Part shown: piece by piece, positions 26,212 to 34,632 of the stretch | Numbering within the stretch: position 1 is the stretch's first letter | How the letters are laid out: every line of letters begins with the position of its first letter | DNA from: the human T2T-CHM13v2.0 reference genome, Homo sapiens | DNA: 64,000 bases | Direction: 5' to 3' (one strand) | Assembly: GCF_009914755.1 (NCBI RefSeq) | Contig: NC_060928.1 | The notes under the pieces: model-generated | What the model saw: only the letters and a program-made list of their open reading frames with translations | Database searches by the model: none | Told to the model about the DNA's origin: nothing | Made by a program: the position numbers and the translations under genes

Positions 26212-28549
26212 TTTTTTATTATTATTATACTTTAAGTTCTAGGGTACATGTGCACAACGTGCAGCTTTGTTACATATGTATACATGTGCCATGTTGGTTT
26301 GCTACACCCATTAACTCATCATTTACATTAGGTATATCTCCTAATGCTCTCCCTCTCCTCTCCCCTCTCCCCATAACAGGCCCCAGTGTGTGATGTTCCC
26401 CACCCTGTGTCCAAGTGTTCTCATTGTTCAATTCCCACCTATGAGTGAGAACATGCGGTGTTTGGTTTTCTGTCCTTGCAATAGTTTGCTCAGAATGATG
26501 GTTTCCAGTTTCATCCATGTCCCTACAAAGGACATGACCTCATCCTTTTTCATGGCTGCATAGTATTCCATGGTGTATATGTGTCACATTTTCTTAATCC
26601 AGTCTATCATTGTTGGACATTTGGGTTGGTTCCAAGTCTTTGCTATTGTGAATAGTGCCGCAATAAACATACGTGTGCATGTGTCTTTATAGCAGCATGA
26701 TTTATAATCCTTTGGGTATATACCCAGTAATGGGATGGCTGGGTCAAATGCTATTTCTAGTTCTAGATCCTTGAGGATTCGCCACACTGTCTTCCACAAT
26801 GGTTGTACTAGTTTACAGTCCCACCAACAGTGTAAAAGTGTTCCTATTTCTCCACATCCTCTCCAGCACCTGTGGTTTCCTGACTTTTTAATGATCACCA
26901 TTCTAACTGGTGTGAGATGGTATCTCATTGTGGTTTTGATTTGCATTTCTCTGATGGCCAGTGATGGTGAGCATTTTTTCATATGTCTGTTGGCTGCATA
27001 AATGTCTTCTTTTGCGAAGTGTCTGTTCATATCCTTTGCCTACTTGTTGATGGGGTTGATTTTTTCTTGTAAATTTGTTTAAGTTCTTTTTAGATTCTGG
27101 ATATTAGTCCTTTGTCTGATGGGTAGATTGTAAAAATTTTCTCCCATTCTGTAGGCTGCCTGCTCACTCTGATGGTAGTTTCTTTTGCTGTGCAGAAGCT
27201 CTTTAGTTTAATTAGATCCCATTTGTCGATTTTGGCTTTTGGTGTTTTAGACATGAAGTCCTTGCCATGCCTATGTCCTGAGTGGTATTGCCTAGGTTTT
27301 CTTCTAGGGTTTTTATGGTTTTAGGTCTAACATTTAAGTCTTTACTCCATCTTGAAATAATTTTTGTATAAGCTGTAAGGAAGGGATCCAGTTTCAGCTT
27401 TCTACATATGGCTAGCCAGTTTTCCCAGCACCATTTATTAAATAAGGAATCCTTTCCCCATTTCTTGTTTTTGTCAGGTTTGTCAAAGATCAGATGGTTG
27501 TAGATGTGTGGTGTTATTTCTGAGGCCTCTGTTCTGTTCCATTGGTCTATCTCTCTGTTTTGGTACCAGTACCAGGCTGTTTTGGTTACTGTAGCCTTGT
27601 AGCATAGTTTGAAGTCAGGTAGCGTGATGCCTCCAGCTTTGTTCTTTTGGCTTAGGATTGTCTTGGCAATGTGGGCTCTTTTTTGGTTCCGTATGAACTT
27701 TAAAGTAGTTTTTTTCAATTCTGTGAAGAAAGTCATTGGTAGCTTGATGGGGATGGCATTGAATCTATAAATTACCTTGGGCACTATGGCCATTTTCACG
27801 ATATTGAGTCTTCCTATCCAAGAGCATGGAATGTTCTTCTATTTGTTTGTGTCCTCTTTTATTTCGTTGAGCAGTGGTTTGTAGTTCTCCTTGAAGAAGT
27901 CCTTCACATCCCTTGTAAGTTGGATTCCTAGGTATTTTATTCTCTTTATAGCGATTGTGAATGGGAGTTTACTCATGATTTGGCTCCCTGTCTGTTATTG
28001 GTGTATAGGAATGCTTGTGATTTTTGCACATTGATTTTGTATCCTGAGACTTTGCTGAAGTTGCTTATCAGCTTAAGGAGATTTTGGGCTGAGACGATGG
28101 GGTTTTCTAAATATACAATCATGTCAGCTGCAAACAGGGACAATTTGACTTCCTCTTTTTCTAATTGAATACCCTTTATTTCTTTCTCCTGCCTGATTGC
28201 CCTGGCCAGAACTTCCAACACTATGTTGAATAGGAGTGGTGAGAGAGGGCATCCCTATGTTGTGCCAGTTTTCAAAGGGAATGCTTCCAGTTTTTGCCCA
28301 TTCAGTATGATATTAGCTGTGGGTTTGTCATAAATAGTTCTTATTATTTTGAGATACATCCCATCAATACCTAATTTATTGAGAGTTTTTAGCATGAAGG
28401 GCTGTTGAATTTTGTCAAAGGCCTTTTCTGCATCTATTGAGATAATCATGTGGTTTTTGTCTTTGGGGGCAGTCTGTCCGTTCTCAGATCTCAAACTCTG
28501 TGCTGGGAGAACCACTACTCTCTTCAAAGCTGTCAGACAGGGATGTTTG
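26212..28549 (-). mobile_element. L1PA (approx. PA4-PA6) 3' half with ~85 bp of 5'UTR fused directly to mid-ORF2
   Basis: Tail at 26212-26228; ORF2 RT-to-C-terminal fragments; 28466-28549 matches L1 5'UTR (CCCTGTCTGACAGCTTTGAAGAGAG...GAGATCTGAGAACGG). TSD A(T/C)GTTCTTTC at 26202-26211 and 28550-28559. Confidence 0.94.
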
Positions 28550-28649
28550 ACGTTCTTTCATTTTAAAGTTATTATATAATCATGGATTCATTTGTCTCTT
28601 TGGAAGCATCTTCTCTGTATAAGTAATTAAAATATTTTCAAGCAAAGTA

Positions 28650-29387
28650 CTTTCACAGTTCTGCAGGCTGTGCAGGAAGCATGGAAGCTTCTGTTTCTGG
28701 GGAGGCCTCAGGAACCTTCCAATCATGGTGGAAGGCAAAGGGGGAGCAAGAAATCTCACATGGTGGGAGCAGAAGCAAGAGAGAGGTGGGAGAGGGAGGT
28801 GCTACACACGTTTAAACAACCAGATCTCTGGCGAATTCACTCACTACCATGAAGACAGTATGAAGAGGATGGTGCTAAACCATTCGTGAAGAATCTGCCC
28901 CCATGATCCAGTCTCCTCTCACGTGGCTCCACCTCCAACATTGGGGATTACAAGTCAACATAAGATTTGGGTGGGGACACAGATCCAAAGCATATCATTC
29001 TGCTCCTGGCCCTCCCAAATCTCATGTCCTTTTCACATTTCAAAACACAATCATGCCTTTGTGATAATCCCCAGAGTCTTAACTCATTCTAGCATTAACT
29101 CAAAAGTCCAAAGTCTCCTCTGAGACAAGACTAGTCCCTCCCATGCATGAGTCTGTAAAATCAAAAACAAGTTAGCTACTTCCAAGATACAATGGAGGTA
29201 CAGGCATTGGGTAAATACTCCCATTCCAGTAGGAAGAAATTGGCCAAAAGAAAGAAGCCACAGGCCCCATGCAAGTCTGAAACCCAACAGTCATTAACTC
29301 TTACAGCTCCAAAATCGTCTCCTTTGATTCTATCCCTCACATCCAGGGCACACTGATGCTAGGGGTGGGCTCCCAAGGCTTTGGGCA
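28650..29387. mobile_element. MST-type MaLR: partial LTR (to ~28996) plus adjoining internal sequence
   Basis: GGAGGCCTCAGGAACCTTCCAATCATGGTGGAAGGCAAAGG...AGATTTGGGTGGGGACACAGATCCAAA, then TTCTGCTCCTGGCCCTCCCAAATCTCATGTCC. Confidence 0.85.
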
Positions 29388-29474
29388 TTTAACTTCTAAA
29401 GCTCCATATCTAAAATTAAAGATGAATGGATAACTTTTTACTATATTAGTTTTTATTCTTAATGTATTTCTCTT

Positions 29475-32300: not shown

Positions 32301-32527
32301 TTCCTTTTACTATTTAATTTTTTTACTTTTACCTCCCACCTCAACGTCCTGAGTAGCTGAGACTACAGGCATATGCCACAACACCTGGCTAGTTTTGTTT
32401 GTTTGTTTCGAGCTCCTGTAAAAATAATAACTATTATTTATTGGAAAATCTCTACACCTCAGGGACTATGTGAAGCATTTTTACATGAACTATTTTATTT
32501 AATCCTCATAATGGCCCTCTGAGAAAG

Positions 32528-32731
32528 TGTAATGAGTTGAATGATGGCCACTCAGAGGATATGTCCATGTCCTAACTGCTAGAACCTGTGGACGTGACTT
32601 TTGTTGGGAAAAGAGTCTGATGATGCAATTAAGGATTTCAAGATCATATCATCCTGGATTATCCAGGTGGATCTTAAATCCAATGACAGTTGTCCTTATA
32701 AGAGAAAGTCAGAAGGAGATTTGATGCAGAG
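32528..32731 (+). mobile_element. MaLR LTR (MLT1-type), 5' portion only, cut by L1
   Basis: TGTAATGAGTTGAATG...ATCCTGGATTATCCAGGTGG...AAATCCAATGACAGTTGTCCTTATAAGAG; ends abruptly at the L1. Confidence 0.8.
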
Positions 32732-34632
32732 GTGATTGTGTATTTAGAAACCCCATCGTCTCAACCCAAAATCTCCTTAAGCTGATAAGCAACTTCAGCA
32801 AAGTCTCAGGATACAAAATCAATGTGCAAAAATCACAAGCATTCCTATACACCAATAACAGACAGGGAGCCAAATCATGAGTAAACTCCCATTCACAATC
32901 GCTATAAAGAGAATAAAATACCTAGGAATCCAACTTACAAGGGATGTGAAGGACTTCTTCAAGGAGCACTACAAACCACTGCTCAACGAAATAAAAGAGG
33001 ACACAAACAAATAGAAGAACATTCCATGCTCTTGGATAGGAAGACTCAATATCGTGAAAATGGCCATAGTGCCCAAGGTAATTTATAGATTCAATGCCAT
33101 CCCCATCAAGCTACCAATGACTTTCTTCACAGAATTGAAAAAAACTACTTTAAAGTTCATACGGAACCAAAAAAGAGCCCACATTGCCAAGACAATCCTA
33201 AGCCAAAAGAACAAAGCTGGAGGCATCACGCTACCTGACTTCAAACTATGCTACAAGGCTACAGTAACCAAAACAGCCTGGTACTGGTACCAAAACAGAG
33301 AGATAGACCAATGGAACAGAACAGAGGCCTCAGAAATAACACCACACATCTACAACCATCTGATCTTTGACAAACCTGACAAAAACAAGAAATGGGGAAA
33401 GGATTCCTTATTTAATAAATGGTGCTGGGAAAACTGGCTAGCCATATGTAGAAAGCTGAAACTGGATCCCTTCCTTACAGCTTATACAAAAATTATTTCA
33501 AGATGGAGTAAAGACTTAAATGTTAGACCTAAAACCATAAAAACCCTAGAAGAAAACCTAGGCAATACCACTCAGGACATAGGCATGGCAAGGACTTCAT
33601 GTCTAAAACACCAAAAGCCAAAATCGACAAATGGGATCTAATTAAACTAAAGAGCTTCTGCACAGCAAAAGAAACTACCATCAGAGTGAGCAGGCAGCCT
33701 ACAGAATGGGAGAAAATTTTTACAATCTACCCATCAGACAAAGGACTAATATCCAGAATCTAAAAAGAACTTAAACAAATTTACAAGAAAAAATCAACCC
33801 CATCAACAAGTAGGCAAAGGATATGAACAGACACTTCGCAAAAGAAGACATTTATGCAGCCAACAGACATATGAAAAAATGCTCACCATCACTGGCCATC
33901 AGAGAAATGCAAATCAAAACCACAATGAGATACCATCTCACACCAGTTAGAATGGTGATCATTAAAAAGTCAGGAAACCACAGGTGCTGGAGAGGATGTG
34001 GAGAAATAGGAACACTTTTACACTGTTGGTGGGACTGTAAACTAGTACAACCATTGTGGAAGACAGTGTGGCGAATCCTCAAGGATCTAGAACTAGAAAT
34101 AGCATTTGACCCAGCCATCCCATTACTGGGTATATACCCAAAGGATTATAAATCATGCTGCTATAAAGACACATGCACACGTATGTTTATTGCGGCACTA
34201 TTCACAATAGCAAAGACTTGGAACCAACCCAAATGTCCAACAATGATAGACTGGATTAAGAAAATGTGACACATATACACCATGGAATACTATGCAGCCA
34301 TGAAAAAGGATGAGGTCATGTCCTTTGTAGGGACATGGATGAAACTGGAAACCATCATTCTGAGCAAACTATTGCAAGGACAGAAAACCAAACACCGCAT
34401 GTTCTCACTCATAGGTGGGAATTGAACAATGAGAACACTTGGACACAGGGTGGGGAACATCACATACCAGGGCCTGTCATGTGGTGGGGGGTGGGGGGAA
34501 GGATAGCATTAGGAGATATACCTAATGTAAATGACGAGTTAATGGGTGCAGCACACCAATATGGCACATGTATACATATGTAACAAAGCTGCACGTTGTG
34601 CACATGTACCCTAGAACTTAAAGTATAATAAT
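32732..34632 (+). mobile_element. L1PA 3' half, inverted partner of 26212-28549
   Basis: 195-aa and 148-aa ORF fragments are identical to those at 27212-27799 and 26584-27030; paired coordinates sum to 60853. Confidence 0.95.

What the first reader, a model, noticed from the sequence alone, without database searches (positions are those of the whole stretch)
26389..34464. Inverted L1 pair homogenised over exactly bounded 1.7-kb tracts: gene conversion and likely recurrent inversion of the enclosed ~4.7 kb
Seen: 26389-28088 is the reverse complement of 32765-34464 (coordinates sum to 60853 throughout; I found one mismatch by eye, 27886/32967). The copies share non-consensus lesions: a TGG>TAG stop (ACAAATAGAAG), a deletion giving AACAGACAGGGAGCC, GGCATGGCAAGG, and a ~15-bp deletion giving CCAAAAGCCAAAATCG. 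Just outside the tract they diverge abruptly, with three differences in the first ~35 bp of the right copy and many in 34465-34560. Established: near-identical inverted repeats are maintained by non-allelic gene conversion and mediate inversion by NAHR. Inference: two old L1s are evolving in concert and 28089-32764 may toggle orientation. The matching TSDs of the left L1 indicate that the orientation shown is the ancestral one.
Basis: partly seen in the sequence, partly recalled or inferred. Interest (0 to 1): 0.8.

Follow-up and report, generated by a model that had tools for sequence, protein, structure and literature searches.

The report
Known L1-flanked polymorphic inversion HsInv0266
Two old L1 fragments facing each other have been made almost identical over 1.7 kb by copying between them, and the 4.6-5.1 kb they enclose is the already catalogued, common human inversion polymorphism HsInv0266, so the reading is right but not new.

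Summary
26389-28088 is the reverse complement of 32765-34464, with one mismatch in 1700 bp, at 27886/32967. Total homology is 1913 aligned columns at 98.8% (26210-28121 vs 32733-34642). All other differences lie in the two edges.

Both arms are decayed LINE-1 ORF2/3'UTR sequence and share a stop, two frameshifts and a five-codon deletion. A third L1 3' end, R2 (about 34643-35040), is about 9% from both arms where they are identical. This mosaic is the signature of non-allelic gene conversion between independently inserted L1s.

The locus is in print as HsInv0266. Its inverted repeats are 1925/1923 bp, L1PA5, 98.5% identical. The ancestral orientation is O1, and the origin is classed "Recurrent" (Giner-Delgado 2019). 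The minor-allele (O2) frequency is 0.3 in 54 samples, and CHM13 is O1 (Moreira-Pinhal 2026).

The published breakpoint intervals (1497 bp each, 5082 bp between them, 8076 bp outer span) equal, by arithmetic, the perfect block 26389-27885 / 32968-34464.

Novelty: already known. Recurrence rests on modest published evidence: 2 of 40 variants shared, and the number of events is given as NA.

The parts
26204..26216 (-). 3' target-site duplication of the left L1 (AAAAAGAAAGAAC on the minus strand)
   Evidence: Read. The local alignment of the two flanks scores 16; shuffle p is about 0.004.
26217..28551 (-). Left L1 (L). It holds ORF2 from about residue 589 to the stop, then the 3'UTR and a short A-rich tail. 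Its 5'-most ~87 bp (28465-28551) are not ORF2; from recall only, they look like an L1 5'UTR piece, which would mean an internal deletion.
   Evidence: ORF2p matches. RVT_1. Sequence. NCBI masks 26199-28578 (hub table).
28552..28564 (-). 5' target-site duplication of the left L1 (AAAATGAAAGAAC), inside the invertible segment
26210..28121 (-). Left inverted-repeat arm: the full homology with R1
   Evidence: blastn, 1913 columns at 98.8%. Matches the published IR1 of 1925 bp.
26349..26388 (-). G-rich polypurine block of the L1 3'UTR. It holds 12 of 40 mismatches between the arms and abuts the outer tract boundary.
26389..28088 (-). Left copy of the homogenised tract: 1700 bp with 1 mismatch
26389..27885 (-). 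Perfect 1497-bp block. By arithmetic it equals published breakpoint interval BP1 of HsInv0266.
   Evidence: for the block. for hg18 189106589-189108085 (1497 bp).
27886..27886 (-). The single paralogous difference. The left copy reads AAC (N, as in ORF2p); the right copy reads CAC (H) at 32967.
28122..32732 (.). Spacer of 4611 bp that is flipped in O2. It holds the rest of the left L1, Alu-like pieces (about 29648-29764 and 31144-31345) and (CA)n/(AC)n runs. It lies in an intron of the predicted lncRNA LOC124900881.
   Evidence: hub gene table
32733..34642 (+). Right inverted-repeat arm = R1, a 5'-truncated L1. It starts at about ORF2p residue 704 and ends at the L1 3' terminus with almost no A tail.
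32765..34464 (+). Right copy of the homogenised tract
32968..34464 (+). Perfect 1497-bp block. By arithmetic it equals published breakpoint interval BP2.
34643..35040 (+). R2, a third, short L1 3' end directly behind R1. It is 90.5% identical to left 26218-26595 and is not homogenised.
   Evidence: (I2). TRF finds period 395, 1.9 copies, 89% matches.

Best explanation
Two separately inserted, 5'-truncated L1PA elements lie head-to-head 4.6 kb apart: L on the minus strand and R1 on the plus strand. Intrachromosomal recombination between them has had two outcomes.

(1) Non-crossover repair (non-allelic gene conversion) overwrote one copy with the other across nearly all shared homology. This left 1700 bp identical but for one base. 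The tract stops 33 bp short of R1's truncated 5' end. At the other side it stops at the highly divergent G-rich block of the 3'UTR.

(2) Crossover resolution within the identical block flips the enclosed segment. This produces the common human inversion polymorphism HsInv0266. CHM13 carries the ancestral O1 form.

High identity favours further exchange, so conversion and inversion feed each other.

Shown here: the anatomy, the mosaic identity, the L1 nature and the shared lesions. Taken from print: both orientations, their frequency, the ancestral state and the 'recurrent' label. Inferred: conversion as the homogenising process and the cause of the tract limits.
For: Anatomy and statistics.

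L1 ORF2 identity and shared lesions.

Independent origin of the copies:
- Homology between L and R1 ends at the natural L1 3' terminus (26210-26213 / 34640-34642). It does not run into flanking DNA.
- L has its own target-site duplications.
- The edges are about 10% diverged, with private changes in both copies relative to R2.
- R2 differs from L = R1 at about 18 of about 196 columns inside the tract (my count from the alignment).

Catalogue match:
- HsInv0266 in hg38 is at 187948262-187950186 / 187954772-187956694, with IRs of 1925/1923 bp, type LINE.
- The hg18 breakpoint intervals are 1497 bp each, the inversion size is 5082, the IRs are L1PA5 at 98.5% identity, the ancestral state is O1 and the origin is 'Recurrent'.
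- The spans 8433, 8076, 1497 and 5082 all equal the window distances 26210-34642, 26389-34464, 26389-27885 and 27886-32967.
- CHM13 is O1 and the minor allele O2 has frequency 0.3 in 54 samples.
- Apes and rhesus are O1.
Against: - No ape or second human haplotype could be aligned here, so conversion was not shown by a paralogue/orthologue tree.
- R1's own target-site duplication is not supported (shuffle p about 0.5).
- Published support for recurrence is thin: 2 shared of 40 variants, number of events NA, and tag SNPs reaching r2 0.9-0.96 in some populations.
- The mapping of published coordinates to the window is by matching lengths, not by alignment to hg18/hg38.
- The subfamily L1PA5 is taken from print; it was not tested.
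Confidence: 0.9

Rival explanations
1. A recent inverted duplication copied 1.9 kb of the left L1 to the right-hand site. In this reading the identity reflects the youth of the duplicate, not conversion.
For: Overall identity is 98.8% over 1913 columns. No significant target-site duplication was found for R1.
Against: Identity is not uniform: 1 difference in 1700 bp inside the tract against 18 in 176 and about 4 in 33 at the edges. Homology stops at the L1's own 3' terminus rather than in flanking DNA. The shared part is entirely L1. O1 is reported in chimpanzee, gorilla, orangutan and rhesus.
Confidence: 0.04
2. L and R1 are two young insertions from one source element at about the same time, so they are alike without any exchange.
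For: Both are L1PA-type 3' portions. Print names them both L1PA5.
Against: The copies share a stop, two frameshifts and a five-codon deletion in ORF2, so a common source would have been defective. Their 3'UTR ends and the inner 33 bp differ by about 10%, which sister insertions would not show next to 1700 identical bases.
Confidence: 0.03
3. Assembly artefact: one arm was copied onto the other during consensus building.
For: None from my calls.
Against: Published hg18/hg38 figures for the same locus give the same arm lengths, the same overall identity (98.5%) and the same 1497-bp unresolvable block. These come from other assemblies. Nanopore reads genotype CHM13 as O1 at this locus. From general knowledge, the whole 8.4-kb structure is shorter than single long reads.
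Confidence: 0.01
4. A single ancient conversion event, with no ongoing exchange and a single-origin inversion. The 'recurrent' label would then reflect gene flux or genotyping/phasing noise.
For: Number of recurrence events is NA. Only 2 of 40 variants are shared. Tag SNPs reach r2 up to 0.96 in some populations. Both tract boundaries are sharp rather than graded.
Against: One difference in 1700 bp implies recent homogenisation: about 0.6 Myr, 95% interval 0.015-3.3 Myr, using a recalled rate of 0.5e-9 per bp per year. There are no fixed differences between orientations. The source classes the inversion as recurrent.
Confidence: 0.2

Closest known systems
HsInv0266 (InvFEST numbering): Giner-Delgado et al. 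2019 Nat Commun (PMC6748972) and Moreira-Pinhal et al. 2026 Genome Res (PMC13629690)
   Same: This is the same locus. It is on chr4, with IRs of 1925/1923 bp of LINE/L1PA5 at 98.5% identity. The breakpoint blocks are 1497 bp and the inverted size is 5082 bp (4585 bp between IRs). CHM13 is O1 and the ancestral state is O1.
   Different: Nothing structural differs. The tables I saw give identity and breakpoints. They do not spell out the conversion mosaic, the tandem R2 element, the L1 lesions or the position of the tract ends. HsInv0266 has 0 occurrences in the main text of the 2019 paper. One full-text search for the name found two held texts, listed as one work.
L1 recombination-mediated inversions (L1-RMI): Lee et al. 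2008 PLoS One (PMC2603318; passages seen)
   Same: Inversion by homologous recombination between two oppositely oriented L1s. L1PA elements are favoured because of their higher identity.
   Different: That study lists differences fixed between human and chimpanzee (21 L1-RMI among 252 inversions). This locus is polymorphic within humans. 'Gene conversion' has 0 occurrences in that text.
Arm-to-arm gene conversion in palindromes and inverted repeats (for example Y-chromosome palindrome P6, Hallast et al. 2013; seen only as a reference title)
   Same: Inverted arms kept nearly identical by multi-kilobase conversion, with rare inversion of the spacer.
   Different: Here the arms are two unrelated retrotransposon insertions of 1.9 kb, not a duplicated palindrome of tens of kilobases.

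Membership tests
Inverted-repeat (NAHR) polymorphic inversion, catalogue entry HsInv0266 | Pair of highly identical repeats in inverted orientation flanking the segment | tested here: met
Inverted-repeat (NAHR) polymorphic inversion, catalogue entry HsInv0266 | Position and dimensions equal to the catalogue entry | tested here: met
   The published lengths 1925/1923, 4585, 1497, 5082 and the outer spans 8433 and 8076 equal the window distances. The chromosome and neighbourhood (upstream of ZFP42) agree with the hub table. This is matching by arithmetic, not by alignment.
Inverted-repeat (NAHR) polymorphic inversion, catalogue entry HsInv0266 | Both orientations present in people, with breakpoints inside the repeats | not testable with these tools
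   Only one haplotype is at hand. Print reports the minor allele O2 at frequency 0.3 in 54 samples and 0.288 in the last column of the 2019 frequency row. I did not see that table's column heads; its foot row gives 480 unrelated individuals.
Inverted-repeat (NAHR) polymorphic inversion, catalogue entry HsInv0266 | Recurrence (several independent inversion events) | not testable with these tools
   Print: 'Recurrent', events NA, 2 of 40 variants shared and 0 fixed.
LINE-1 (L1PA) retrotransposon copies | ORF2 (reverse transcriptase and C-terminal part) homology | tested here: met
   phmmer to solved human ORF2p gives E 1e-135 for residues 766-990. Further pieces match residues 589-657, 660-749, 991-1053 and 1073-1223. 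RVT_1 matches at E 9.5e-13, above the cut-off, and at E 1.5e-6, 28.5 bits, just under the cut-off of 29.6.
LINE-1 (L1PA) retrotransposon copies | 3' end with A-rich tail, variable 5' truncation, flanking target-site duplication | tested here: inconclusive
   Left L1: met (p about 0.004). R1 and R2: the 3' termini and 5' truncation are seen, but no supported target-site duplication (p 0.5 and 0.9).
LINE-1 (L1PA) retrotransposon copies | Subfamily L1PA5 | not tested
   No repeat-family library is available. The name is taken from Giner-Delgado 2019 SD1.
Non-allelic (interlocus) gene conversion / concerted evolution | Identity tract embedded in older, diverged homology between paralogues | tested here: met
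Non-allelic (interlocus) gene conversion / concerted evolution | Paralogues group within a species rather than with their orthologues | not testable with these tools
   No ape sequence is available.
L1 twin-priming inversion | One insertion whose inverted 5' part and direct 3' part are adjoining, non-overlapping L1 segments within a single target-site duplication pair | tested here: not met
   Both arms cover the same L1 positions (ORF2p residues about 704 to the end). They are separated by a 4611-bp spacer that is mostly not L1: only its first ~430 bp, 28122-28551, are the rest of the left L1.
Inverted segmental duplication | Duplicated block not made wholly of a transposable element, with homology running into unique flanks | tested here: not met
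   Homology ends at the L1 termini. The SD-track definition is quoted.

The most novel reading that the evidence does not exclude
The sharp limits of the homogenised tract may not be accidents of one event. They may be pinned by sequence. On the outer side, the G-rich, quadruplex-prone polypurine block of the L1 3'UTR (26349-26388, 30% mismatched between the arms) would act as a barrier to heteroduplex extension. If so, inverted L1 pairs genome-wide would share a preferred conversion/NAHR zone ending at that block. Combined with inversion, this would be a self-sustaining loop that keeps a subset of old L1 pairs young and unstable. The conversion mosaic of this particular pair was not described in what I could search.
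Probability: 0.15. Interest if true: 0.4.

Novelty: already known. Interest (0 to 1): 0.12.

Why it matters
The locus is a textbook-quality small example of how two unrelated retrotransposon insertions become an unstable inverted repeat. Conversion raises identity, and identity permits repeated flipping of the enclosed DNA. It has already been validated, genotyped in hundreds of people and used as a benchmark inversion, so it adds no new biology. Its value here is as a positive control: a reader working from raw sequence alone predicted a real, common structural polymorphism and its ancestral state. The segment lies in an intron of a predicted lncRNA about 37-40 kb upstream of ZFP42. The 2019 paper's main text never names the inversion, and it is absent from that paper's supplementary tables of gene effects and GWAS links, as far as shown.

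Tried and rejected
- A full-text search for inversion + ZFP42 + inverted repeats + polymorphic found 0 papers.
- The Cell 2022 inversion paper (Porubsky et al.) is not held and bioRxiv supplements are closed, so I could not check its call set. The 2026 catalogue that merges it lists this locus.
- Target-site duplications for R1 and R2 are not better than shuffles. I cannot tell whether R2 is a separate short L1 insertion or an old 395-bp tandem duplication of R1's end.
- Pfam gave no family for the two C-terminal ORF2 pieces. The PDB sequence search did identify them.
- A recalled CTCF-type motif gave 0 matches in the whole window at up to 1 mismatch, against 0.28 expected. So there is no lead that the flip turns such a site.
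- Twin priming, inverted segmental duplication, sister insertions and assembly collapse were considered and rejected (see rivals and membership).
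Full report
**1. The observation**

The repeat finder reports an inverted pair, 26213-28105 and 32748-34640: 1893 nt, 99% complementary, 4642 nt between the arms. I compared every base with its partner on the antidiagonal (coordinates summing to 60853).
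- Within 26389-28088 there is one mismatch, at 27886.
- The flanking mismatches are at 26388 and 28089.
- 26213-26388 holds 18 mismatches, 12 of them in 26349-26388.
- Outside 26213-28105 the comparison drops to random level.

Gapped blastn extends the homology to 26210-28121 against 32733-34642: 1913 columns, 98.8%, 19 mismatches, 3 gaps.

The clustering of differences at the edges cannot be chance.
- Fisher p = 2e-18 for the tract against the outer edge.
- Fisher p = 1e-4 for the tract against the outer edge beyond the G-rich block (4 in 128).
- Fisher p = 5e-7 for the tract against the inner edge (about 4 in 33).
- None of 100000 simulations with 22 evenly scattered differences reached a perfect run of 1497.

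**2. What the arms are**

The left arm is T-rich on the plus strand and the right arm A-rich. This is as expected for an L1 on the minus and an L1 on the plus strand, with their 5' ends facing each other.

Translated pieces of the left copy match solved human LINE-1 ORF2p (8uw3 numbering):
- residues 589-657
- residues 660-749
- residues 766-990 (E 1e-135; about 200 of 225 residues identical by my count of the printed alignment)
- residues 991-1053
- residues 1073-1223

Pfam RVT_1 matches the first two pieces.

Their meaning is confirmed at protein level:
- The TAG lies where ORF2p has W799.
- The reading frame changes by one base at about residues 749/750 and again at 990/991.
- Five codons after residue 1001 are missing.

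Because the arms are identical there, both carry all of these lesions.

At the one mismatch the left copy keeps the ORF2p residue (N, AAC) and the right copy has H (CAC).

**3.

- The left L1 runs 26217-28551. Its first ~87 bp are not ORF2. From recall only, they look like a 5'UTR piece, which would imply an internal deletion.
- The left L1 is flanked by a 13-bp target-site duplication matching at 12 of 13 positions, at 26204-26216 and 28552-28564 (shuffle p about 0.004).
- The right-hand masked block is two elements. R1 (32733-34642) starts at about ORF2p residue 704 and ends at the L1 3' terminus. R2 (about 34643-35040) is a further 0.4-kb L1 3' end (TRF period 395).
- No supported target-site duplication was found for R1 or R2.
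- Homology between L and R1 stops at the natural L1 3' terminus and does not enter the flanks. This argues for separate retrotransposition rather than a segmental duplication.

**4. Why conversion**

R2 serves as a third copy over the last 380 bp, which span the outer tract boundary.
- Inside the tract, L and R1 are identical and R2 differs from them at about 18 of about 196 columns.
- Outside the tract, L and R1 differ at 16 columns up to the tail. R2 sides sometimes with one and sometimes with the other, so both have private histories there.

An old, decayed sequence that is identical between two copies whose edges are about 10% apart is the standard signature of non-allelic gene conversion.

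Crossovers alone (inversion and re-inversion) only swap differences between arms. They do not erase them, so a non-reciprocal process is needed. This step is inference.

With a recalled mutation rate of 0.5e-9 per bp per year, one difference in 1700 bp puts the last homogenisation at about 0.6 Myr (95% interval 0.015-3.3 Myr).

The tract ends are explicable.
- The inner end lies 33 bp from R1's truncation point, where homology runs out.
- The outer end abuts the G-rich polypurine block of the 3'UTR, where the arms differ at 12 of 40 positions. Such a mismatch-dense patch is expected to stop heteroduplex extension (inference).
- With about 10% prior divergence, the boundaries are resolved only to about 10 bp, so 'exactly bounded' slightly overstates what can be known.

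**5. It is a known inversion**

Table S1 of Moreira-Pinhal et al. 2026 (PMC13629690; supplement searched) lists HsInv0266:
- chr4, hg38 187948262-187950186 and 187954772-187956694
- 4585 bp between the IRs
- IRs of 1925 and 1923 bp, type LINE
- reference orientation O1

Its Table S3 gives CHM13 as O1 and minor allele O2 at frequency 0.3 across 54 samples.

Giner-Delgado et al. 2019 (PMC6748972; supplements searched) give the following.
- hg18 breakpoints 189106589-189108085 and 189113168-189114664, size 5082, IR identity 98.5%, L1PA5, ancestral O1, origin 'Recurrent', genotyped by inverse PCR.
- O1 in chimpanzee, gorilla, orangutan and rhesus.
- An O2 frequency row ending in 0.288. I did not see the column heads; the foot row shows 480 unrelated individuals.
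- 40 variants inside the inversion, 2 shared between orientations, 0 fixed.
- Number of recurrence events NA.
- Tag SNPs with r2 up to 0.96 in some populations.

Every published length equals a distance in the window:
- 8433 = 26210..34642
- 8076 = 26389..34464
- 1497 = 26389..27885 and 32968..34464
- 5082 = 27886..32967

So the published breakpoint intervals are exactly the perfect block between the outer tract boundary and the single mismatch. The same block exists in the hg18/hg38 reference haplotype, which also disposes of an assembly artefact in CHM13. This mapping is by arithmetic; I could not align to hg38.

**6. Assessment of the interpretation**

Its target-site-duplication argument for ancestry agrees with the primate data. 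The 'recurrent' part is asserted in print, but on modest evidence for this locus.

**7. Comparison and novelty**

- The locus belongs to the known class of L1 recombination-mediated inversions (Lee et al. 2008, PMC2603318; passages seen).
- It also belongs to the known class of IR-mediated recurrent human inversions (Aguado 2014 passages; Giner-Delgado 2019 passages).
- It would not appear in the UCSC segmental-duplication track, which leaves out repeats made wholly of transposable elements. It was found empirically instead.
- The name HsInv0266 occurs in two held texts, listed as one work, by full-text search, and 0 times in the main text of the 2019 paper. Details such as the R2 element, the lesions and the position of the tract ends may therefore not be written out anywhere I could search. 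They are routine.

Verdict: a real feature, correctly read, already known.

**8. Function**

The segment is intronic in the predicted lncRNA LOC124900881 (hub table). It is not listed among inversions with gene effects or GWAS links in the parts of the 2019 supplement I read. A recalled CTCF-type motif is absent from the whole window. I see no evidence of a functional consequence.

Noticed in passing
window 34643-35040 (+): A third short L1 3' end (R2) sits directly behind R1, forming a 395-bp-period tandem with R1's end at 89% matches. It has escaped the homogenisation, although it is about 90% identical to both arms. Whether it is a separate insertion or an old tandem duplication is undecided.
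   Followed up: partly
window 28465-28551 (-): The left L1 begins with ~87 bp that are not ORF2 and join straight onto ORF2p residue ~589. From recall they resemble L1 5'UTR sequence, which would mean an internally deleted element. No repeat library was available to test this.
   Followed up: no
window about 28131-28142 (-): In the left L1, the reverse-transcriptase motif that reads FADD in solved ORF2p reads FAAD. It lies just outside the part shared with R1.
   Followed up: no
window 1285-3358 (-): An older L1 copy, 75-77% identical to the left L1 over about 2 kb. A further 166-bp L1 3' fragment lies at 53614-53776.
   Followed up: no
window 30806-30837 and 30970-30996: Perfect (CA)16 and (AC)13.5 microsatellites inside the invertible spacer. 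They could serve as haplotype markers for the two orientations.
   Followed up: no
window 28552-28578 vs 26204-26230 (-): The 5' flank of the left L1 resembles the element's own 3' terminus beyond the 13-bp target-site duplication (a TATATAATAA-like stretch, alignment). This is probably AT-rich chance similarity.
   Followed up: no
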